A stretch of DNA of 64,000 bases from positions 105,586,001 to 105,650,000 of the forward strand of contig OX597820.1 in assembly GCA_951406725.2 (NCBI GenBank), written 5' to 3'. Position numbers and translations under genes: made by a program. Origin of the DNA: Octopus vulgaris. Its lineage: Eukaryota. Positions 21,771-52,600 of the stretch are shown one piece after another (within the stretch, counting starts at the first letter, position 1; each line of letters begins with the position of its first letter). The notes under the pieces were generated by a model. That model was given only the letters and a program-made list of their open reading frames with translations, had not been told where the DNA came from and made no database searches.

Positions 21771-22845
21771 TGGTTGAATAAAAAACCTGATTTTGTGACA
21801 AGCTATAAGAAATAATGAATTTTCTGTTTATTTCCATATGAAAAGGTAGATATTGAACCTGACTCCACACCTGAACGAATCTAATAGTTTAACTCTAAAG
21901 CGAGAACTAATTTAATTTCTTCTCATTTAATACGTTGTTCCAGATACTTCATATTTAAATGCAAAATATCAGACAGGCTCTTAAAATTCATTACTATTTA
22001 TTTGTCTTACTTGAAGATTTAAAGGTTTCTGAGGCTGTTAACTTCATTAAGTTTTATACCAATCATCATAAGCGGTGTGTAGAATCCGGTGACCAGAACT
22101 AAAATACGAAGACAATATACAGTCTGTGTGACACATATATCAGGCAGGTTTATTTTCATTGATTTACATCAAACAAAGGAATGCCTTTAATGAGAAAAAA
22201 GAAAAAAAAGCTTGGTTTATGTTACTATGTTCCCGATTTAAAAATTCAATATCATTCCTACCACTTGAATAAGTAATTAAACTTAGGAATGCGATGTTTG
22301 TGCGTTTGTTAAATTAGCAAAGGATCTAACTAAAATTAACACCTTATTATCGCATAAAGTAATTGCCAGTTTGTTTTTAAATATTTTTTAAAATCAGAAA
22401 ATGACTGTAAAACTCCAATTTATTCCTATATCTAGAGAACTCTTAAGTTGAGATCGCAAGCTGGGAGAATTATCTAGTAGCAGAGAACATTACGAATGAT
22501 TTAAGTATTAGTATTTCACTTACCGATGTTCAAAACAAAGTTAATAAAGAAAGCAATTATAAAAAATGTAATTCATTTGTTCATTTTTATTATTAAACGG
22601 TTTCTTCTCGTCAGCTGTAATTCGTCTCTTTATTCTACATATAAAGCATTTCTCTCTCTCACCAGTAAAACATTTTTTGATCAAAACTTCCTGACGATTA
22701 CTCCTGCGAAAAACAAACCTTTGTGACTACATTAGCCACCCCTCTTTTAATGATAAACTATTCCTCGATTATGGCTGTTACAGTACTATTCCTCATTCTG
22801 AAAGTTAACGAGCATTTGTAATATAGCTTTCTATTTCTTTTTCAG

Positions 22846-23794
22846 AAACCTGATGTTATCTCTAGGAAAGCACACGCAGCCATCGCTTTTTGGACACGAT
22901 CTTTTGGAGTTGAAAAAGCATTTACGGCAAACCGACTCCTGTTATTGGACAAGCAGTAAAAGCGATGAATCCAACATTAACGAAATGGCTCATTTTCATA
23001 GATTACTCGATGTTTTCCAGAGACAGCAACACCTGGAAATTAATCACATCGTGAAATCTCTTAGAACGAAAAGCCAGTGGTTAATCCGTTCTGAAAAACT
23101 CTGGGACATATTCAAAAGTGAAGTTGATCCAGTTGTACATCCGGTAGCCATTTCAGAATGTGAACCTTCAGAATCCAGTTGGCCCAAGAAGCTCGAATCC
23201 GATGCAACTTTGTCTGCGACGAAAGACTCTAAAGCACCAATATCAATCATGTACTTAAAAGAGAAAGATTTTTGGGGATACGATGTAAAAACTACCCCAA
23301 ATATTGGAAAACCCATATCACTGGGGCTTTCCGTATTAACTGATTGGCGCGATCCCCCCGAAATTTCGTTCCAGGCGATCTGGACATCTTCCGACAAAAC
23401 TCCAGATAACGAAAATTTGACTGAAACTGATGTTGAGAAGTGTAGTGTCAAAAGTATGGTCAAAATACATGAATCCCAAACGGAGGAACTCGACCAAAAT
23501 AATATTCACTCCAATAGAACAGAAATGGGTATTACTAATATTTTAGAAGTGGGAGGAAAGTTGAAACAGAATGAAGAAATTCAGTTAGAATCTCAGTGTG
23601 TGAACAAAAATGAAAACGACTACAACAAATTTGAATTTAGTGAACAGTTGCCAAATTGTTCAAATAAAGAAATTCTTGACATTGAAAACACAATAACACA
23701 TTGCATTTGCACTCAAACAAAACCTTCAATCGTTGAAAAATCGGTTGCTTTTCCGAGACGGCTGTTTTCACCGGGTTTGAACGCTCGAAGTTAA
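22846..23794 (+). CDS. Probable terminal coding exon of an unidentified host gene
   Basis: 313-codon stop-free frame in AT-rich DNA, directly preceded by a polypyrimidine tract and AG (tttctatttctttttcag|, AG at 22844-22845). No TE motifs recognised. ATTAAA/AATAAA signals lie downstream. Confidence 0.6.
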
Positions 23795-24559: not shown

Positions 24560-25200
24560 TTACCATCACTAATGTGCTTTGGTCAACTCAATATATCTGT
24601 ATTAAAGCGAGGAAGTTTCCTGTTGTACCCTAAGATACACTATATAACTAAACATTTCAAGTACATCGAAGACAATAGGCCCATCCTTTGTTTAGCTTAC
24701 CAGAACAAATTATGTAATTTAATTGTTTCAATTTCGAATATTACTTCCACTTTGCGCACACGAATCAAAACCCATCCCAACATCTCTTCCTATTCACGTA
24801 CTCTCCTTGCTACTTTGTGTAGACATTTACTCACTGCAAAAACAATTTTGGTCATTGACCCCACTTAGCTGTACCGAGCTGACTTGTCCACCCACACTGT
24901 ATTCCTAACGGGACTACAGCCTTAATGAATTCTTCAACTTTTCCGTGTATCTACAACAACCTATGAAAATGTTTGGGTGTGTATCCCAGCATACACGAGT
25001 AAATTGTTAGACTTTGTCAGTTATCGACCAATCACTAATATTTACACAATGATATTTGAAAAAAATGGACGTCTCTTTACTACCACTTTTATTACATTGA
25101 GTCTCTTCGCCTTCTCGTTGACCAATAGTCAAGAGATTTGCTATCATCTTTCCCACAAACGAGTACTTGACATTAATAATTAGCACTTGACATTAATAAA
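24560..25200 (+). mobile_element. Degraded Penelope-like RT remnant
   Basis: LLYPKIH…RPI…TLLATL…YLQQ…PAY, in the order expected for the PLE RT motifs LPKIHK / RPIVS / LATLDV / YLQ. Confidence 0.45.
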
Positions 25201-25856
25201 TCCTTCACCACCGTATCTGGCATGAGGATCCGTTCTCAAAATATCGTGTCTACAAGATTCTTTCCTTTATTGCATTATATATTTTGTGAGACTACTCCAT
25301 AAACACATATATATATATATATGTGTTTATGTATGTATGTATGTATATATATAAATAAATACCGTAAATCTTCGAGTATAATCCGCATTTTTTCCCCAAA
25401 GTTTATAGGTCAAAATCCCTAGTGCGTACTATATACGAGGTTAAAAATGAAAAATATTTTCTATGCAATGTCCGAGTCTCTATTTGCTGTCCGGTAATTA
25501 TTATTCAGACGCATTTTCTGATGTCGGGCGCGAAAATACCTTAAGCTAAGCCTGAAAGCAATGAAGTTATAAAAGAATCATCCATAACTTGCAGTAAGCA
25601 ACATTTATTAAAATAAAAGTATTCAGAACACAGAATAACATGTAACAAAAACAATTTGCAAACATATTTACATTCCCATATAACAGTTAAGAACATCACC
25701 ATTATTGTATTACGCATGCGTGGAAGTGCTTTTTCAACTAGGTGTTGCTGGCTTAATTACGCACGAATTGTCCTTAATAGTTTAGCGCTAAATAGTTCAT
25801 CCTGCTGTTTGTATTGACAATTTGCATCATTACCGGGCAAACAATAGATACTCTGG

Positions 25857-27548
25857 TCGACACAGAACAGAGAGACATCGGTGGAGACCGTATCACGATG
25901 CATAGACGATATATGCCGGGCTTCGCTAAAGCCCCGTCAAAAGTTCATGATGCTACAGCAGTACTACCTGCCGAGCCTGTTTTACGGATTAACACAGGCG
26001 ATACCACCAAAAGTAGGACTTGATGAACTGGATATGGCAATAAGAGGTGGGGCGCGTAGGATGCTCCATCTCCCCGATTCAACGTCAAAAAGCTTTCTGT
26101 ATAGTGCAAGAAGGGACGGGGGCCTCAGCCTCTGTCAGTTAGCGCGCGCTATTCCAAAAAACGTGATTCGCAGGAATCAGCGTTTATTGAACTCAGATTA
26201 CGATGCCGTTCGAACGATAGCTCAGGCTGCCCGGCTCTCCACTAAGAACGCGGAGCTGGCCGCCCTATACGATGTTCCGTCTGTCCAAAATGACGGCGAC
26301 CTGTACGCCCCGGACCTCCGCCTCACCCACGCCAAGAGGTGGGAATCGCAACCGGTCCAGGGTGTCTGCGTTGCCGCCTTCAAATCGGACCAGATCGGTA
26401 ATAGCTGGATGACGCGACCGGGCGGGATATCTGAGGAATGCTACTTGGGGATACTCAAGATGCGGACCAATACGTTTCCCACCCGCGAATGCCTCACTCG
26501 GGGAGGCCGAGGCGATAGCACCTGTAGGAAGTGTAAAAGCGCGTCGGAGACGATCTCCCACATCAGTGGCCAGTGCTCACGCCTCAAAACGCAGAGGCTG
26601 GCCAGGCACAATCGATTATGCCGGCTGGTGGCTAGGGAAGCCGAGCGGTACGGCTGGATGACCGGCTGGGAACCGGTCTATCGAGTATCGGGGTCCAGGT
26701 TAATCCCCGATTTAGTATTCCGCAACTCGAGTGAAGTGGTCGTTATAGACGTGACCGTCAGGTACGAGCAAGACACGGCGCTGAGGGACGCCGCACGCGA
26801 GAAAGAAAGGAAGTACCGGCCGCTGATACCACTCCTCCAAAGGGAGCTGGGTCTACCGGTACGCGTGTTCGGTTGTCCGATAGGAGCCTGCGGCGCTTGG
26901 AGCGCCGAGGCCGAGGAGGCGCTGGCCGCGCTACGTATTATTGACAAGCGCTTTATGCGACTGCTAAGCAGAACTGCGATGCTCTGCACGTTTAACATGC
27001 TGAGGAGTTGATCCAGTGACGGGGATCAGGCGGCGAGGCCCATGCCCGGGCGCCGTTACTTGAGGTTAGGTTGATCTCCACATCAGCCTTTTCGAATTCG
27101 ATTTCCCGAGGCCTATCGCAAACTAAACCACGCGATTCTGTCGGTCACCCCGTCAGTTCCCCCCGCGGATCCCCCGAAGCAAGGCGAGTATTGAGCTTCA
27201 GGGTCCCGTTCACCGCAGGGCTGAGGGTGCGGGACGACTGGACCTGCCCTCTTGTACGTGAGCCAGCCCAATAACATAACCTCCCCGCAGTCGAAGCGCT
27301 TATACTCCTGCGGGGTCCCCACCGGAATATACGCCACTCCCAAGGTGATCCGGGAGTTTACCAGACAAGAAATGACCGAATAAGACATCCGCCGAAATGA
27401 TGTCCAAGGCCGCGATTAATATCACTGGCAATGGCACAGCGGGACGACCCTGGAGGGACAGCGTGCGCGTCGCTATGACGGAGTGCGTGTGGGACCACCC
27501 ACAGAAAATAACAGGGAAAGATTACGGATTTATTTCGGTAAGCGTCGG
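25857..27548 (+). mobile_element. 5'-truncated R2-like (restriction-like endonuclease) non-LTR retrotransposon
   Basis: GC-rich block. ORF 25881-27011 is followed by a ~540-nt 3' UTR ending at GG-TAGCCAAATGCC, the 28S R2 target sequence. Confidence 0.85.
25881..27011 (+). CDS. R2-like ORF C-terminal part: RT thumb, CCHC zinc knuckle, PD-(D/E)xK endonuclease
   Basis: LKPRQK, RDGGL, CRKCKSASETISHISGQC, RHN, PDLV, DVTV and KERKY in an uninterrupted 376-codon frame. Confidence 0.9.
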   Translation: METVSRCIDDICRASLKPRQKFMMLQQYYLPSLFYGLTQAIPPKVGLDELDMAIRGGARRMLHLPDSTSKSFLYSARRDGGLSLCQLARAIPKNVIRRNQRLLNSDYDAVRTIAQAARLSTKNAELAALYDVPSVQNDGDLYAPDLRLTHAKRWESQPVQGVCVAAFKSDQIGNSWMTRPGGISEECYLGILKMRTNTFPTRECLTRGGRGDSTCRKCKSASETISHISGQCSRLKTQRLARHNRLCRLVAREAERYGWMTGWEPVYRVSGSRLIPDLVFRNSSEVVVIDVTVRYEQDTALRDAAREKERKYRPLIPLLQRELGLPVRVFGCPIGACGAWSAEAEEALAALRIIDKRFMRLLSRTAMLCTFNMLRS

Positions 27549-30289
27549 TAGCCAAATGCCAGTATTAAATGTTTGAACAACTGTGGGTCTTTACTAGGTT
27601 TTTATAAGCGGGACTTAAACCTGTACATTAATCGCCAATAAAACATTTTATACATTACATGTCCATAAAATGCTTCGTAGATCTTATTCAGCTATGTTTA
27701 AACTTGAAGTTATATCATATGCTGAAGAGCATGGTAATAGGGTCGCCGGAAGAAAATTTGATGTTGACGAAAGCAATGTCAGGTTAAGGAGAAGAAATAA
27801 ATAGCCATTAATACAGTACATTTGAGGCTACAGGCAAAACTCATTGCTAAAAAGATAAAACTTAATGAGTCAGAATTTAAAGCATCACATGGCTAGGCAT
27901 AAAGTCGTTCACTAAAAGTGGAAGGTTTCGCGCTCCCGACCTGACTTTGATAAGCAAATGGATCGTGTATGCATGGAATGAACTTGATCCTCAGATTATT
28001 GTGAAAAGTTTTATCTAATGTTTTATATCGTCTGCACTGGATGGTACTCCAGTACCATCCAGTGTATGTTGTATGGAAAGATGAAACAAATGAAAGTGAA
28101 TCTTCTGATGTTGACTATGAATCTGACGATGATGGAGATTTGCACTACAATGATGCTGACATGTTTTCGGAGGAACAAATGGAACAGTTATTTGATGCTG
28201 AAAGTGATGTTGAATTTGAAGGATTTGAATAAATGTTTTTGCTTTTGCTTTAGTAACTGATAGTGATAAATATGTAATGGCAATTTACTTAATATTTATT
28301 TTTCACTGACGTTATTACTGTTATTTCTTTATTTTCTGCAAACAAAATGCACAAAAAAGCTACACGTTTGCTTTATGTTATATATACAATAATAATAAAG
28401 GACGTTACTGTATACATTTTTAACAAACCAAGGACGTTATATAGACCTCCTTAACTCAAGTTAGAGGAGGGGTGCGTATTATACACAAGGTTTAGGCTTT
28501 TCAGAGGTACAACCCCCTAAAAATCCCCGGCGGACTATACTTGAGGATTTACGGTATATATGCGTGTATGTGTCTATGTATGACGAGCCTTCGTTTTAAC
28601 TCGCATACATGTCATTATTGTTCGTTAATTTTCGTAAAAATTTATTTACTTTTGTTTTCAAGGCGTGTGGAAGCCGACATTAGCTTTGAAGTGAGAGAAG
28701 AAAGTGAGGAGAAAGTGAAAGATGTATGGACGTGTGTGCGAGTGAAGGGGTGTTATGTATACGTTCATACATAAATACATATGCATACACCTTTTTGTGT
28801 GTGTGTTCTCACGTATTTTTTTTTGCATGTTTAAGTGGCCCTCTCTCTCTCTCTCTTAAATATATACAGACATACATATAAAAAAGATGTATGCATATGT
28901 TTTTATATATGTACGTGTATATGCAAGATAATGGGTGTTTTTTTTTCTCTCTCTCTGACGTAGCTACATTTTACTTTCTGCTCTCACTTCAAAGCAAATG
29001 TCGCCTCTACACGTCATGAAAACAAAAGTAAATAGATAAAAATTTTTTTGCGGAAATTAACGAACAAAACTAGCTGATCCAAATGACAATTCTGCAAGTC
29101 AAAACGAAAAATGACACACGCGCGCGCGTGTGTATTATATAATACAACCTTTTCAAATACACTGTATCAGTGTTTAGCTACAGGTTGACTCTGAGCAAGC
29201 CTATTGTCAAAAGTGGGGTTCCAATCATTGAATTTTTATGGACTTAATCTGTAAAACAAACCACGTGCGTGTGTTTACAGGTGTGCACATATAGGTATAG
29301 GCAAAATGTGAGGTGAGTGTACATTGAACGTAAACAAACTTATCGAGTCTTTTTGACTTTTTCAAGAAGCGTCTCATTGTGTAATCATATACGTAGTCAC
29401 ACTTGTGCAATTCTACTCGGACAACTACAATATTTATTGTATTTAACAATGGTCTTGTAAATAAGACATTTTCCAGTCAGCGAGCTGGTGCTGATTGGAC
29501 AAACTGAAGGCACTGCAGACGTGACCATTACGTGTTTTTCCCACGGGCAGGAAAATCAAGACCACATTATAAAGTTGATTCATCCGTGAAATAATTTAAT
29601 CGTTTCTTCGATGGATGGGATGCTGTGAGTATATCATTGTACTCTAACAATTTTCTCTTTGTAATTGAAAGGATTCTGTGATAGAATCATAACACGATAA
29701 AAATCAACTGAGCTTTAAATTCTACTTCCTCCACCTATGGTGAAATGGTAGATTTATGAAGTGGTTAGTTATGGTTTTAAAATTGGTTTTGAAACTTAAT
29801 ACAAGAAAACGCTTGCACAAATTTAGTAAATAAGTTGAAATTTATTAAAATCAATGAATTTTAAAATATTCCTGAATTGTCTTCCTAAACTAATTTTAGT
29901 ACAGCGACATTTAAGAGAATCATTTGAAACGATTACATTTAAATTATATATACTTGTATATAAATTCAGAACGATTGAAGTTTATTTCCCATTCGCAAGA
30001 AAACTTGCGGGTTACAGTGTAAATGTGGTAGAAGTACTTAGTTTTTCCCCATTGCTCTTGTTCAGTATCTGGCTTTTCCCCTTTGCACGAGTTCAATATC
30101 TGGCAAGTATAGTGTCTTTTCTGCTTTACAAACACTCAGCCAATTAACACTGCCAGATTTACGCACGTTAAACTACAGCTTGATATTCAAAATTGGGCTA
30201 AGAAGAAACATACTTTCAATGTCCAAACACCATATTTAAGCAGCCTCAAAACTGATTTTCAAGTTTAAATCTGGTGCTACTCCTCACAT

Positions 30290-31597: not shown

Positions 31598-32171
31598 TAA
31601 GCAACAAAGATACTCAGAGGTAATGCAGTACGATCGTTTCATGCAACTTCATTTAACTGAACAATGCAATCATTACATCAATTTAAAATGCAGAGCAATC
31701 CTCAGCTGCAAAAAGACATAAAATTTAATTAAATTAGAACAGAAGGACTCATTAGTATAATTATACCTAAAATCTCCAAGAAGTTAAGGAGATAGACAAA
31801 TAACATACTGTCTCCACTCCAGCATAGAAGTTACTAAATTATCAACAAGATATACATTGTTACAGACTCTGCCTATCACTGATTTTTTTCTTTTTATGGG
31901 GTCAGTTTTAATTTATAGACTAGTTTATCAAATCCTTTCATATTAAAATCAAAATAAGCAACAAGGATATCCAGAGGTAATGCAGTATGATCATTTAATA
32001 CAACTCCATTTAATTGAACAATGCAATCATTAAATTCTGTTTTTGTGCAGCTGAGGATTGCTCTGCATTTTAAATTGATGTAATGATTGCATTGTTCAAT
32101 TAAATGGAGTTGCATGAAACGATTGTACTGCATTACTTCTGGATATCCTTGTTGCTTATTTTGATTTTAAT
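31598..32171. repeat. Three copies of a ~120-bp unit, the last two forming a palindrome
   Basis: aagcaaca…gaggtaatgcagta…tgaacaatgcaatcatt at ~31600 and ~31956, with an inverted copy at ~32035-32171. Confidence 0.8.
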
Positions 32172-32486: not shown

Positions 32487-34498
32487 ATCATCATCATCAT
32501 CATTTAGCGTCTGCTTTCCATGCTAGCATGGGTTGGACGGTTCAACTGGGGTCTGGGATGCCAGAAGGCTGCACCAGGCCCAGTCTGATCTGGCAGTGTT
32601 TCTACGGCTGGATGCCCTTCATAACACCAACCACTCCGTGAGTGTAGTGGGTGCTTTTTACGTGCCACCCGCACAGGTGCCAGACGGGGCTGGCAACGGC
32701 CACGATCGGATGGTGCTTTTTACGTGCCACCCGCACGGAGGCCAGTCGGGGCGGCACTGGCAATGGCCACGATCGGATGGTTCGCTTACGTGTCACCGGC
32801 ACTGGTATCACAGCTGCAATTTCCATTGTTGTTGATTGACTTCGATTTTGGTTCTGATTTCTGATATCTGATTTGATTTGATTTGATTTGATTTCCACTT
32901 GCCTCAACGGGTCTTCACAAGTGGAGTTTTGTGTCCCAAGAAGGAAAGGTATGCATAAGTCGACTGGCTACATCCCAAGTAGAGGCCACGGGTTATGGTC
33001 TCACTAGTCCTGCCGGGTCTTCTCATGCACAGCATACTTCCATAGGTCTCGGTCTCTAGTCATTTCCTTGGTGAGACCTAAAGTTCGAAGGTCGTGCTTC
33101 ACCACCTTGTTCCAGGTTTTCCTGGGTCTACCTCTTCCACAGGTTCCCTCAACTGCTAGGGTGTGGCACTTCTGCACACAACTATCTTCAGCCATTCTCG
33201 TCACTTGACCATACCAGCGCAAACGTCTCTCTTGCACACCACAACTGATGCTTCTTAGGTCCAACTTTTCTCTCAAGGTACTTACACTCTGTCGAGTATG
33301 AACACTGACATTACACATCCATCGGAGCATACTGGCTTCATTTCTTGCGAGCTTATGCATATCCTCAGCAGTCACAGCCCATGTTTCACTACCATGTAGC
33401 ATGGCCGTTCGTACACATGCATCATACAGTCTGCTTTTTACTCTAAGCGAGAGGCCTTTTGTCACCAGCAGGGGTAAGAGCTCTCTGAACTTTGCCCAGG
33501 CTATTCTTATTCTAGCCGTTACACTTTCAGCACACCTACCCCCGCTACTGACTTGGTCACCTAGGTAACGGAAGCTATCAACTACTAGTTTTTCTCCCTG
33601 GAATGTTGTAGAAGTTGGTCTCTGCACATTTTCAGTGTTTATTGCTCCTGAGCATCTGCCACATACAAAAACCATCTTCCTAGTTAGCCTTCCTTTGACA
33701 TTGCTGCACCTCTTATGTGTCCATAGCTTACACTTGGTGCATCTTATAGAGTTTCTACCTACACCTTTTCTACAGATTGAGCAGGGCCATGTACCTGAAG
33801 GCGTTTGTGATTGGTCTACCTTCCTACTTATTAGGACTTTGGTTTTGGCTAGGTTGATTCTAAGGCCCTTCGATTCTAATCCTTGCTTCCACACCTGAAA
33901 CTTCTCCAGTTCTGATAGTGACTCAGCAATTAGAGCAAGATCATCAGCATAGAGGAGCTCCCAGGGGCATCCTGTCTTAAATTCCTCTGTTATTGCCTGG
34001 AGGACTATGATAAATAGGAGGGGACTGAGGATTGAACCTTGGTGGACCCCTACCTCTACCCGGAATTCTTCACCGTACTTGTTGCCAACCCTCACCTTAC
34101 TAGCAGCGTCTCTGTACATGGCTCGCACAGCTCTCACTAACCATTCATCTATCCCTAGTTTCCTCATTGACCACCAGATAAGGGATCAGGGGACCTTGTC
34201 GAAGGCTTTCTCCATGTCAACAAAAGCCAGGTACAGGGGCTTATCTTTGGCTAGGTATTTCTCCTGCAGCTGTCTTACCAGGAATATAGCATCAGTAGTA
34301 CTTTTCCCTGGCACGAACCTAAACTGCATCTCATCTAAGCTAACTCTCTCTCCAATTAGTTGGGCTATAACCCTCTCTGTAACCTTCATTACCTGATCCA
34401 GCAGCTTCATACCCCTGTAGTTATTTGTATCTAGGGCGTCACCTTTACCTTTGTAGCAGTTGACTATTATGCTGCTATACCAGTCATTGGGAATGACT

Positions 34499-34501
<3 letters not shown>
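32487..34501 (-). mobile_element. RTE-clade LINE, 5'-truncated, (GAT)n tail
   Basis: ORFs 33004-34167 and 34186-34410: YLAFVDMEKAFD, GVHQGSILSPLLF, LLYADDL, FRYLG, RLRWYG, GRGRPRKTW. One frameshift; flanked by (TA)n on both sides. Confidence 0.95.
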
Positions 34502-34539
<38 letters not shown>

Positions 34540-34541
<2 letters not shown>

Positions 34542-35040
34542 TTGTTTATATGCTTGTACGTATGTTTAATTGTGCCTATTTATGTATTTATGTACATGTA
34601 TAGGTGTATATATTTGCTTATGTATATATATATATGTATATATGGATATATATTTATATATATATTAAATTGTACGTGTATCGTGTTTCATGCATATATT
34701 TATATTTTGAAAGTGCTTTATAATCTCTGATGAGGCCTATGGATATATATAAGTACCTCATTTTTAACTGCTTAAAACCTCAATATAATTGACATGTACA
34801 GGCACAAAAAATTACTTTTTTCCATAGGCTGAAACAGCTGTTAGTGATTTTATGATTTTAATAATTTATATTAATGTTTTTTAATAACTACTTGTATTCT
34901 TATCTTAAATGTATTGAATTTTATACTGTATATATGTATGTTATTACGGTTGTAGTTTTGATAATTAAATAAGTCAACATTCTAATATCCTAAAGCTGAT
35001 AAACCAACTAATGTGTTTCTCCATTTTCTTATTTGTAATA
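34540..35040 (+). mobile_element. Solo Penelope-like terminal repeat (pLTR) fragment
   Basis: Homologous to ~48925-49360 (shared hammerhead and …gtttctccattttcttatttgta). Confidence 0.7.
34721..34849 (+). ncRNA. Hammerhead ribozyme motif (type I, PLE-associated)
   Basis: CTGATGA (34727-33), stem II GGCCTATGGA/TCCATAGGCT, GAAA (34831-34), palindromic CAGCTG, GTT triplet. Confidence 0.7.
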
Positions 35041-49161: not shown

Positions 49162-49662
49162 AGTAGTTTATGGATTTCAATAATTTATAATATGACTTTT
49201 AAAATCTGTATTTGTATTATTATCTTATCTATTGATTTATATAATATTTTTGTATGCCTTTTGATGTTCTCATTTGTAAAATGAATAAATAATCTAACAT
49301 TATAATATCCGTAAGTTGATGAACAAACTAAATTTGTTTCTCCATTTTCTTATTTGTATTATAAATTTAAGGTAAAAATATTTCTTTACTTTCACCCGTT
49401 TAATACAATGAATGAATTAATTGCATTGCAATTAAAAACATTTATTTATTAAGAATTTGGGTAATTTACCAACAGTATATTGGATAATTGATATCCCATA
49501 GTAGGTTATACCCATAACCCCTATCTTACTTTGTACTATAAAGTTAATTATTTGAGGAATATCTATTGCTAATACGTATATATGTATGAATTATCTATGC
49601 AATATTTGAAGTATTGCTAGTATAAGTGAATACATTTAAGTATAGTATATTAATTCCTCAAA

Positions 49663-52600
49663 ATGAATACTGTTGGAAAAATGGAGAAAATATGGATTGA
49701 TTCATCACTGAAAGATATACCCATACCAACCAAGGACCATTACACCAAGGAACTAATATATAGGATTAATGAATTTATCCACAGGATTAGATGGAAAATC
49801 TACAACCATGAGAAAAATATCACAAAATTGAACTATGAAGATAAAAACGACCACAACTACACTAGAATAAGAAGTAATTATGAAGAAATAATTGAACTTA
49901 CTAGTAATTCTTTTAAATCAAGAAAAGCACCACCACCCAATAAATACTTGGATAACTTCGAGCAGGATTTATGGAGTACCATTAGGAATATTAAGTTCAA
50001 GAATCATCCACTAAGGAATAATCCATACCAAAGGAAATTGAAGGAAATTATCAGAACTCTTAAGAGTAAAGATAGTATCTTAACTCATTCGGATAAAACT
50101 AGTAATATATACAACATTGACACTCAGACTTACCATGAGTTATTACTCAGAGAAATTACAAAAAAATATAGGGTTGTACCTTTTGATACACTTAGAAAAT
50201 TGAATTTGGAAGCTAGAAATATTATGTATGATTATAATCTAGAAGATAAAACAGAGCCTTTTACTCCAATTAGACCACGAATAATGATTAAAGACCATAA
50301 AGATAATTTCCCTAATATTACTCAGGTTAGATTAATCTGTCCAAATAAATCGGACTTAGGTAAATTAAGTAAATTAATTCTGAATAAATACATACCTATT
50401 ATAAGAAATAAAATTAAGCTTAATTTATGGAAGAATACATAAGGTGCTTGGGAATGGTTTTCCAGTATTAAGGTTTATAACAGTATTAACCATAAATTAA
50501 TCCAATTTGATATCCAAAATTATTACTCATCAATTAACCCAATAATACTTAACAAAGTTTTAATTTTTGTAAGAAAATATACTAATATTAGCATGAAAGA
50601 AATTAAGGTAATTTTGATGGCAAGAAAAACAGTTATAGAATTCGATAATAAATTATGGGCTAGGAAGGATATGCCTGACTTATTTGACATTACAATGGGT
50701 TCGCCGGATTCAGCGGAAACGACTGATTTAGTAGGGATTTATTTATTAGATAATTTAAGTAGAGAATTCCCTGAATTAAATGGCGGCCTCTATAGAGACG
50801 ACGCTTTATTTTTAGTTAAGAACCTATCGAATAGAAGACTAGAAATACTCAAGAAACGATTGCATAAATTTTTTAAGAGTTTCGGCCTATCCATTACTAT
50901 TGAAAATGAGAATTATTCTATTAATTATCTCGATGTTAATTGTAACCTCAATACTGGACTCCATGAACCTTATGTGAAACAAAATTCTAGTAATCACCCT
51001 CCACAAATTAAAAAAGCACTACTACTAAACATAAGTAAAAGGATTTCTAACCTTTCCTTGAATGAAGAGATATTTAATAGACCCAGTGAAAAGTATAACT
51101 CAGCATTACATAGGGCAGGATATAATGTTAAAATAAAATATATCCCCAATAACAACCTTAATACTAAGAATAAATTAACAACTACAAATAAACATTGGTT
51201 AGACATGCATAACAATAATCCAAATAAAAAGAATAATCACAAATATAATATTAATATGAATAGAAATAATACTAATAATAGTGTAAACAGGATTAAAGAT
51301 CATATCATCATCATCATCATCATCATTTAACGTCCATTTTCCGTGCTAGCATGGGTTGGACGGTTTTACCGGGGTCTGGGAAGCCAGGAGGCTGCACCAG
51401 GCTCCAGTCTGATCTGGCAGTGTTTCTACAGCTGGATGCCCTTCCTAACGCCAACCACTCCGTGAGTGTAGTGGGTGCTTTTTACGTGCCACCAGCACAG
51501 GTGCCAGGGAAGGCTGCCAGCAGCCACGATCGGTTGGTGCTTTTTAGAAATAGTAAAGTTAATAAGAACTATGATAACAATAATAACTACAATAAAGCAT
51601 TTAGTCAAAATTATAATAATAACAATTTTACTGATTGTAGAAAGTACAGAAGAAATAATAAGAATAGGGAATTTATAAATAATATAGGTAAGTCGTGTAA
51701 TCAATATAACATTACTGATACACTGTGGTTAATAATTCCATATGCCATGCAAATTAAAACTAACGTAGTAAGAAATATTTTCAATTTAATAAACAAGCAT
51801 TTTGGAAAAGGAAAGAACAAATATTGTGACATAATTAATAATAAAACTATTAGAATAGGATACAGTCTTACTCATAATCTGGCCACCATCAATATCCTCA
51901 ATTAATAATAAAAAACTTGATTATTTCTATCTAAATAAAATAAATAATTTAGATAACACAAATGTGTCTTACTATAACTTAAGATATAATTATAACAATA
52001 TAAGTAATAGTAATCGAAATGGAAACTATAGTAATAGTAATACTATAACGAATAATAATAGAATGGATAATATTAATAGAATTAGTAATGATAACACCAT
52101 AGGTAATAATAATAATAACATAAAATATAACATAAATAAGAGCAATATTATCAATAATAACATGCCGATGGATATGGGAATAATAAGTGTTAATGATAAT
52201 AATATTAACAATAATAATATTGAAAATAATGCAGTAGAAATTAATCATAATAAAATAAAGCAACTACAACAAGCTAATAGGTGCAATTGTAGAATTAGAG
52301 AAAATTGTGTATTTAATAATGGCTGCATGAAAAGTACACAATATGATAATAGAGTCTATATTGGGACTACAATGAATAATTTGAAACAGAGACTTAATTA
52401 TCACAGAATATTTTAAAAAATAGAAATAGGAGTAACTCTACAGGGTTAAGTGCATATATATGGGAGCTTAAGAATAAAAAATTCAATTACAATTTGCAAT
52501 GGAAAATACTTATATCTGCACCAGCGTATAATAATAGGAATAGAAAATGCTCATTATGCATTAATGAGATTTTCTTTATAATTAGGACTAATTTACCGAT

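What the first reader, a model, noticed from the sequence alone, without database searches (positions are those of the whole stretch)
25850..27560. R2-like retrotransposon outside rDNA, ending in the 28S target sequence, nested in a pogo transposon
Seen: a GC-rich block with an uninterrupted 376-codon ORF (thumb, CCHC, RHN, PD…D…K endonuclease) and a long 3' UTR. It ends at GGTAGCCAAATGCC (27547-27560), then returns to AT-rich pogo sequence. Known: R2 inserts in 28S rDNA at …TTAAGG|TAGCCAAATGCCTCGTC. There is no rDNA in this window. The left flank CGGGCAAACAATAGATACTCTGG loosely resembles the upstream 28S target (…CGGGAGTAACTATGACTCTCTTAAGG). Inference, two options: (a) this pogo family carries a 28S-mimic site giving R2 an extra-rDNA landing pad that could itself be mobilised between intact TIRs, or (b) an R2 read-through transcript carried 12 nt of 28S to an ectopic site.
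Basis: partly seen in the sequence, partly recalled or inferred. Interest (0 to 1): 0.8.

Follow-up and report, generated by a model that had tools for sequence, protein, structure and literature searches.

The report
Stray R2 retrotransposon carrying 28S tail
A broken 3' piece of a known retrotransposon that normally inserts only in ribosomal RNA genes sits inside an older DNA transposon, likely copied from an RNA that ran 12 bases into the ribosomal gene and likely paired loosely with the new site: a real but minor off-target event.

Summary
Window 25853-27548 is the last 1.7 kb of an R2 element. Its full-length relative (4,750 bp) sits at the canonical 28S site in this genome's rDNA array and matches the published R2-1_OVu by eye. 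It is followed by 12 nt of 28S (27549-27560) inside a non-autonomous pogo-type element. All 29 empty pogo copies examined read TAATTAAATACC or a variant, never TAGCCAAATGCC. At least 83 empty sites exist against one filled one, and the composite has no second copy. The upstream '28S mimic' is at chance level once its ends are fixed. One part of option (a) survives: the 12 bp lost from the pogo match the 28S tail at 8 of 12 positions in register (0.2% of background sites), with no target duplication. Contigs from independent sequencing runs bridge the 3' junction, so it is not an assembly chimera. Other extra-array R2 3' ends here carry 10-45 nt 28S tails. Best reading: a one-off, off-target R2 insertion primed by a read-through 28S tail; the copy is dead. 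Extra-rDNA R2 copies and tail-guided off-targets are already in print. Interest is modest.

The parts
25360..25386 (+). TA target dinucleotide (25360-25361) and left 25-bp TIR of the pogo-type element
   Evidence: sequence; family TIR consensus, one substitution here
25362..25852 (+). left, non-coding part of the pogo-type element; ends ...ATAGATACT
   Evidence: 40 matches listed, 1,469 candidates in the genome; junction shown
25853..27548 (+). 5'-truncated R2 copy (nt 2886 to the end of the 4,750-bp element, with a ~170-bp 3' UTR deletion shared with the C33 copy); lacks the zinc fingers, Myb and the RT core
25854..27011 (+). retained reading frame: thumb/linker, CCHC knuckle, RHN, PD...D...K endonuclease; uninterrupted, but it starts at the truncation point
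27012..27548 (+). R2 3' UTR (537 nt) with the terminal motif GTGGGACCACCCAC...AGGGA shared by R2 lineages of this genome
27549..27560 (+). 12 nt of 28S rDNA (TAGCCAAATGCC) replacing the pogo's TAATTAAATACC in register; no target-site duplication
27561..28554 (+). right part of the pogo-type element: transposase remnants (BrkDBD-like HTH about 27676-27816, C-terminal piece about 27896-28012, acidic tail to 28232), DDE core missing
   Evidence: BrkDBD E 0.005, below cut-off; tblastn with a 457-aa BrkDBD/HTH_Tnp_Tc5/DDE_1 relative from this genome, E 5e-10 and 6e-6; acidic tail
28530..28556 (-). right 25-bp TIR and TA (28555-28556)

Best explanation
This is a dead, 5'-truncated copy of the genome's rDNA-resident R2 element lying inside an older non-autonomous pogo-type transposon, likely made by off-target target-primed reverse transcription (TPRT) of an R2 RNA that still carried at least 10-12 nt of downstream 28S rRNA. 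Shown: the source family sits at the canonical 28S site; the 12-mer is 28S-derived and absent from empty pogo copies; it replaces a 12-bp stretch that it matches at 8 of 12 positions in register; the left junction falls exactly at the register-equivalent R2 insertion point; there is no duplication and no 5' microhomology. Inferred steps: (1) R2 was co-transcribed from an inserted rDNA unit with a short 28S tail. (2) The tail paired imperfectly with the pogo bottom strand (8 Watson-Crick and 2 G-T pairs of 12). (3) Synthesis was primed near the far end of the tail, so the 28S letters were copied in. (4) Reverse transcription stopped after about 1.7 kb and the top strand was joined at the register position. 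The composite has not moved since.
For: The full-length R2 (4,750 bp, 1,276-codon ORF, RVT_1 E 5e-27) lies between CTCTTAAGG and TAGCCAAATGCC in the C20 rDNA array, next to 6 empty targets spaced about 18 kb apart. The nearest copy, on C33 inside rearranged rDNA, is 98.2% identical over 1,159 bp, groups with the window at 99/97 support, shares the 3' UTR deletion and continues into 28S for more than 800 nt. 0 of 29 empty pogo copies have the 28S 12-mer. Only 287 of 124,560 background positions reach 8/12 identity (0.23%) and 48 reach 10/12 pairing when G-T is allowed. The order of events fits: the R2 copy has 9 private changes in 1,159 bp (about 0.8%) and the pogo copy is 3.2% from its family consensus. 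Window against C33 gives 6 synonymous and 14 non-synonymous codon changes (neutral decay); window against the array copy gives 49 and 19. Genome-wide, among 35 loci with the R2 3' motif, 21 carry 10 nt or more of 28S and 7 of those 21 stop within 10-45 nt. A rough random-breakage model gives P about 0.002-0.006 for mean fragment lengths of 300-350 nt. Published passages agree: engineered R2 off-targets share little with the target except primer-complementary sequence just downstream of the nick (PMC11371274; PMC12222951 section 11), and a 3' 28S flank on the RNA raises R2Ol insertion (PMC6530143).
Against: There is no target-site duplication, poly(A) or 5' microhomology, so nothing at the junctions proves TPRT. 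In published off-targets the genomic sequence downstream of the nick is kept; here it is replaced by the RNA's letters, which needs priming at about +10 or repair towards the RNA (inferred, not shown). The upstream protein-recognition features reported for R2Tg are not met in register (1 of 7 at -25..-19, no T at -20). The 8/12 match is a single event, and 2.5% of sites reach it if the register may slip by 5 nt. The genome also holds internal R2 fragments with no 3' end (C17, C20:31.6 Mb, C27, C5:128.9 Mb, C13) and pieces with 28S on both sides (C9, C29), so capture without R2-type priming does occur. For the 2 other short-tailed copies whose empty site could be read (both SINE-like repeats), the junction likeness was only 1 and 3 nt. 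The breakage statistic rests on an assumed fragment length and on loci that may not be independent. The 5' junction was not bridged by any contig among those shown.
Confidence: 0.7

Rival explanations
1. Break-repair capture without the R2 endonuclease: a double-strand break in the pogo copy was patched with DNA or cDNA from an R2-inserted rDNA unit, with the 8/12 likeness used for strand invasion or end joining.
For: No duplication, a 12-bp loss and no upstream recognition match. Many internal R2 fragments and rearranged, dispersed rDNA units exist in this genome. The nearest relative lies in a rearranged rDNA unit.
Against: The piece ends 12 nt past the R2 3' end, and the left join sits exactly at the register-equivalent insertion point. 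Short tails are over-represented among extra-array 3' ends (7 of 21 within 10-45 nt). A DNA donor offers about 18 kb of rDNA unit plus 4.75 kb of R2 in which to break.
Confidence: 0.22
2. One reading: the pogo family carries a functional 28S-mimic landing pad that R2 uses repeatedly and that can move R2 between TIRs.
For: The family is abundant (1,469 candidates) and carries the 8/12 site. One of 83 empty copies already reads AAATGCC. The TIRs of the window copy are near-intact.
Against: 0 of 29 empty copies have the 12-mer. There are at least 83 empty sites and 1 filled site. The two 2-mismatch hits show no R2 end upstream by eye. The upstream likeness is at chance level. Sites scoring 9/12 occur in the DNA around one empty copy. 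The host lacks its DDE core and the R2 lacks its RT core.
Confidence: 0.05
3. Assembly chimera between a collapsed rDNA/R2 repeat and a pogo copy.
For: Both partners are repeats and share AAAT.CC at the 3' join. No listed contig spans the whole stretch or the 5' junction.
Against: The 3' junction is bridged in 3 of 4 runs by the tool's 31-nt rule (X1 27452-27628 with 0 differences; X3 27338-27628; X7 27452-27613) and by 28 nt in the fourth (X6). The runs come from 4 studies and 3 organism labels. The window copy has 9 private substitutions.
Confidence: 0.03

Closest known systems
R2-1_OVu (octopus R2 in Table S2 of PMC13188248)
   Same: The table row gives a 1,276-residue ORF and a 4,750-nt element. 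The displayed first ~400 residues and ~400 nt match the full-length C20 array copy found here (compared by eye). The window copy is 93.8% identical to that array copy over 1,159 coding bp.
   Different: The window copy is 5'-truncated, outside rDNA, and belongs to a sub-lineage with a ~170-bp 3' UTR deletion. In the passages seen, the paper does not discuss extra-rDNA copies of this element.
Non-rDNA R2 copies of Drosophila (PMC2718515)
   Same: Five species had R2 copies not in a 28S gene, often incomplete and 1-2% diverged from the rDNA copies (passage). The window copy is 1.8% from its nearest rDNA-linked relative.
   Different: The passage seen does not describe 28S tails, empty-site comparison or nesting in a DNA transposon.
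Off-target insertions of engineered A-clade R2 proteins (PRINT, PMC11371274; R2Tg, PMC12222951)
   Same: Off-target sites were chosen mainly by complementarity to the RNA's 3' 28S tail.
   Different: There the tail is 4-5 nt, the genomic letters are kept and (for R2Tg) -25..-19 matches the target. Here 12 bp are replaced by RNA letters and the upstream match is absent.
[quoted passage not shown]
   Same: They show that R2 can take up downstream 28S sequence and shift or lose its target (passages).
   Different: Those are heritable family-level changes. This is a single dead copy, and its family remains at the canonical site.
pogo-type (BrkDBD + HTH_Tnp_Tc5 + DDE_1) Tc1/mariner transposons
   Same: TA duplication, short TIRs and remnants matching a 457-aa transposase with these three Pfam domains.
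   Different: Internally deleted and non-autonomous. No finer subfamily placement was tested.

Membership tests
R2 non-LTR retrotransposon | Family inserts at the canonical 28S site ...TTAAGG|TAGCCAAATGCC | tested here: met
   Full-length relative at this site in the C20 array; the 98% identical C33 copy runs into 28S
R2 non-LTR retrotransposon | Single ORF with RT followed by CCHC and PD...D...K restriction-like endonuclease | tested here: met
   1,276-codon ORF with RVT_1 E 5e-27 in the array copy; C-terminal motifs in the window; PDB hits to R2 proteins
R2 non-LTR retrotransposon | N-terminal zinc finger(s) and Myb domain | tested here: inconclusive
   Absent from the truncated window copy. 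In the array copy, three finger motifs (CCHH, CCHC, CCHH) and a Myb-like stretch were read by eye; Pfam gave only a sub-threshold C2H2 hit. A three-finger layout suggests lineage A, but PMC13188248 reports that finger number does not define the lineage
R2 non-LTR retrotransposon | HDV-like ribozyme at the 5' end | tested here: inconclusive
   Rfam over the 5' 531 bp of the array copy found only LSU rRNA; no structure model was built
R2 non-LTR retrotransposon | Clusters with R2 rather than R4 or NeSL in an RT/RLE tree | not tested
   No tree with R4 or NeSL references was built. The homologue search gave 188 hits (best 39% identity); the 120 listed are mostly unnamed and the informative names are R2-type labels. 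Site occupancy and the published match settle membership directly
Autonomous, active R2 copy | Complete RT and 5' end | tested here: not met
   The window copy starts at nt 2886 of 4,750, just after the YLG motif
R2 target (28S mimic) in the pogo | Downstream TAGCCAAATGCC present in the empty site | tested here: not met
   0 of 29 copies; the consensus site matches 8 of 12
R2 target (28S mimic) in the pogo | Upstream recognition sequence (-25..-19, T at -20) | tested here: not met
   1 of 7 and no T at -20 in register; gapped likeness at chance level
pogo-type DNA transposon | TA duplication and terminal inverted repeats | tested here: met
pogo-type DNA transposon | Transposase with HTH_Tnp_Tc5 and DDE_1 | tested here: inconclusive
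   Only remnants remain in the window; they match a relative carrying both domains. No full-length member of this exact family was recovered

The most novel reading that the evidence does not exclude
The dispersed R2 copies of this genome are a fossil record of the natural R2 template 3' end. R2 RNA is used with ragged 28S tails of roughly 10-45 nt, and such tails steer R2 to loosely complementary sites outside rDNA and overwrite them, as at this locus. That would bear on how the R2 RNA 3' end is formed, which two papers call unclear or unknown, and on off-target risk for R2 gene-insertion tools.
Probability: 0.3. Interest if true: 0.6.

Novelty: new member of a known kind. Interest (0 to 1): 0.3.

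Why it matters
As a single locus it matters little: it is a dead fragment of a catalogued element, and extra-rDNA R2 copies are in print. Its value is that the empty site can be read from dozens of sister pogo copies, so the junction chemistry of a natural off-target R2 insertion is visible: 12 bp replaced in register by 28S letters, with no duplication. It is also one of at least seven short-tailed copies in this genome. If a full census confirms the pattern, it would give in vivo evidence on R2 RNA 3' ends and on tail-guided off-target choice, which is relevant to R2-based gene insertion tools.

Tried and rejected
Landing-pad reading: rejected. Early idea that many genomic copies share one 5' end at 25853: an artefact of the query; those copies continue upstream. 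Upstream 28S mimicry: at chance level with fixed ends. Tail likeness as a general rule: of 9 other tailed loci tested, an empty site could be read for only 2, with 1 and 3 nt of junction identity; a third joins another 28S-site element; six had no usable empty copy among the held loci. Copy number from contig depth: junction contigs were 0.7-2.8 times the unique-flank depth in the four runs, and the tool warns that depth is no copy number, so it was not used. Expression: no RNA holder listed; not evidence either way. Rfam on the rDNA-bearing loci failed internally; rDNA was mapped by blastn against the genome's own unit instead. The ribozyme search found nothing. Five probes elsewhere on contig C33 showed no rDNA or R2. 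Earlier findings of this scan: none in 3 look-ups. Literature: 'R2 retrotransposon + octopus + 28S' gave 0 papers; 'R2 element + 28S rDNA + cephalopod' gave 1 SINE paper; 'octopus + retrotransposon + rDNA + pogo' gave 2 unrelated papers. The octopus R2 nevertheless turned up in a supplement, so main-text searches under-report. Repbase/Dfam, subscription papers and bioRxiv supplements were not searched. This locus and its 28S tail were not seen described in what was read, which is not proof of absence.
Full report
1. What is in the window. The window is G000:C7:105586001-105650000 of a 2.8-Gb animal assembly. A 57% GC block (25853-27560) lies in 34% GC flanks. It holds an open frame of 387 codons stop to stop (25848-27011; 376 codons from GTG 25881) with the thumb/linker, CCHC, RHN and PD...D...K motifs, then a 537-nt 3' UTR and GGTAGCCAAATGCC at 27547-27560. 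All 5 PDB matches are R2 proteins, best E 3e-56. The window has no rDNA. The flanks form one element, 25362-28554, bounded by TA and by 25-bp TIRs with one substitution each from the family consensus. Its transposase remnants match a 457-aa BrkDBD/HTH_Tnp_Tc5/DDE_1 protein found elsewhere in the genome, with the DDE core missing.

2. It is an R2. The genome has an rDNA array on C20 with 6 empty targets about 18 kb apart. The next unit carries a 4,750-bp element between CTCTTAAGG and TAGCCAAATGCC, with a 1,276-codon ORF (RVT_1 E 5e-27; three finger motifs and a Myb-like stretch read by eye). Its lengths and the displayed start of its sequence match the published R2-1_OVu (supplement rows of PMC13188248; compared by eye). 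The window copy corresponds to nt 2886 to the end. Its nearest relative is on C33, inside rearranged rDNA: 98.2% over 1,159 bp, sister in a 9-row tree at 99/97, with the same ~170-bp 3' UTR deletion and more than 800 nt of 28S behind it. No tree against R4 or NeSL was built; occupancy of the canonical site answers that question directly.

3. The empty site. All 29 other pogo copies fetched with the left flank are empty. They read ...ATAGATACT|TAATTAAATACC|AGTATT or a close variant, and none has TAGCCAAATGCC. A pattern search finds 83 empty sites within one mismatch (44 exact); one of them reads AAATGCC. A search for the filled junction with up to 2 mismatches returns the window and two hits without an R2 end. 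So the 12-mer came with the R2, and the composite exists once in this assembly. The insertion replaced exactly 12 bp, with no duplication and no 5' microhomology. The lost 12-mer matches the 28S 12-mer at 8 of 12 positions, all four differences being transitions, and an RNA tail could form 8 Watson-Crick and 2 G-T pairs with it. Background: 0.23% of 124,560 positions reach 8/12, 0.04% reach 10/12 pairing, and 2.5% reach 8/12 if the register may slip by 5 nt. The left join falls at position 0 of the same register. Upstream there is no real mimic: 1 of 7 at -25..-19, and fixed-end alignments are matched by 13-98% of random sites.

4. It is not an assembly chimera. Four public runs (contigs of short reads; 4 studies, 3 organism labels; 4 of the 24 listed) were laid on 24900-29000. 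The 3' junction is bridged with 31 nt or more on both sides in X1, X3 and X7, and with 28 nt on the pogo side in X6. One run may be the assembly's own source. No 5'-junction bridge was among the 32 pieces shown, of more than 23,000; long reads were not available.

5. Age and fate. The R2 copy has 9 private changes in 1,159 bp; the pogo copy is 3.2% from its consensus (median of 29 other copies 3.9%), so the R2 is likely the younger by about three- to four-fold. Differences from the C33 copy are 6 synonymous and 14 non-synonymous, against 49 and 19 from the array copy, as expected if both are decaying copies of a lineage that was under selection. It lacks the RT core, so it cannot move itself, and there is no sign that the pogo moved it.

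6. Genome context. A 3'-end motif search gave 34 matches; 33 were examined (C26:6999303 was not), plus 2 more, so 35 loci in all. Their 28S tails: 9 longer than 800 nt (the array and dispersed rDNA units), 5 of about 90-230 nt, 7 of 10-45 nt (window 12; C1:50.0 Mb 12-16; C1:194.1 Mb 10; C29 11-19; C14:24.4 Mb 22; C9 35; C22:41.73 Mb 45), 2 of 4-6 nt judged by eye, and 12 with none. Under an exponential random-breakage model, 7 of 21 ends within 10-45 nt has P about 0.002-0.006 for mean lengths of 300-350 nt, and less for longer means. The model is rough, the loci include other R2 lineages and non-coding derivatives, and some may not be independent. Against a pure TPRT reading, internal R2 fragments without a 3' end are also scattered in the genome, two short-tailed pieces carry upstream 28S as well (C9, 138 nt; C29, 42 nt), and the two other readable empty sites show only 1-3 nt of junction identity.

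7. Mechanism. Most likely (0.7): off-target TPRT of a read-through R2 RNA whose 28S tail paired with the pogo site, primed near the far end of the tail, and stopped after 1.7 kb. The source, the tail origin, the register and the order of events are shown; the pairing, nicking and priming steps are inferred. Main rival (0.22): capture of an rDNA/R2 piece at a break, using the same likeness. Landing pad 0.05; artefact 0.03.

8. What is known. What I saw of each paper: passages of PMC2718515 (non-rDNA R2 copies in five Drosophila species, 1-2% diverged); passages of PMC11371274 (off-targets share primer-complementary sequence downstream of the nick); passages and section 11 of PMC12222951 (three off-target features); passages of PMC6530143 (3' 28S flank raises insertion); passages of PMC5035012 (28S-like sequence in fish R2 3' UTRs; non-specific families); passages of PMC13580325, PMC6895275, PMC12203849, PMC3414825 and PMC10946416; passages of PMC8789037 and bioRxiv 10.1101/2025.04.30.651568 (R2 RNA 3'-end formation unclear or unknown); passages and supplement rows of PMC13188248 (the first supplement search left 4 of 16 files unread, the second covered all 16). 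Searches for octopus or cephalopod R2 in main texts found nothing relevant.

9. Verdict. A real, new instance of a known kind: a dead extra-rDNA copy of a catalogued R2, with an unusually readable junction. The exciting option, a mobile landing pad, is not supported. Interest 0.3. The genome-wide tail pattern (probability 0.3, interest 0.6 if true) is the part worth following.

Noticed in passing
L169:6925-8692 (G000:C1:149.69 Mb), L168 about 3.1-1.3 kb from its start on the minus strand (C1:41.39 Mb), L160 (C9:109.88 Mb); older copies in L170, L175: A 1.76-1.80 kb non-coding element (longest stop-to-stop frame 113-172 codons, 96-98% identical among three copies) sits exactly at the R2 site of 28S and shares only the 3' motif and short UTR pieces with R2; likely an R2-dependent non-autonomous element, resembling the Drosophila SIDEs.
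   Followed up: partly
G000:C18:79.795-79.843 Mb (L170-L173): A cluster of tandem copies of a second R2 lineage (about 55-60% protein identity to the first in the C-terminal half), interleaved with the non-coding element and 28S pieces.
   Followed up: partly
G000:C11:54.66 Mb, C14:30.22 Mb, C2:103.40 Mb, C3:181.41 Mb, C33:0.22-0.25 Mb: Dispersed, internally deleted rDNA units that carry R2 at the canonical site; C5:100.92 Mb has a full-length R2 starting at its first base with no upstream 28S but more than 3 kb of rDNA downstream.
   Followed up: partly
L062:8920-9090 and the matching part of the C20 unit: The spacer downstream of 28S contains scrambled pieces of the 28S R2-target region (by eye), and several R2-type 3' ends join directly to it (L144, L149, L156).
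   Followed up: no
L094:5150-5281 (G000:C17:56.33 Mb): A 290-bp internal R2 fragment, 98.6% identical to the window copy, follows degenerate CCCTAA repeats ending in CTCTTAA, the sequence just upstream of the R2 nick in 28S.
   Followed up: no
window 22802-23794 (+): A 330-codon open frame with no Pfam match at E up to 1, 1.6 kb upstream of the pogo; possibly a long coding exon.
   Followed up: no
window 33004-34545 (-) and 49654-51330 (+): Two other reverse-transcriptase-like remnants: an RTE-like frame on the minus strand and a Penelope-like pair of frames split by one stop on the plus strand (family labels recalled from motifs, not tested).
   Followed up: no
window 31598-32171: Nested inverted repeats of 94-124 nt at 92-93% complementarity.
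   Followed up: no
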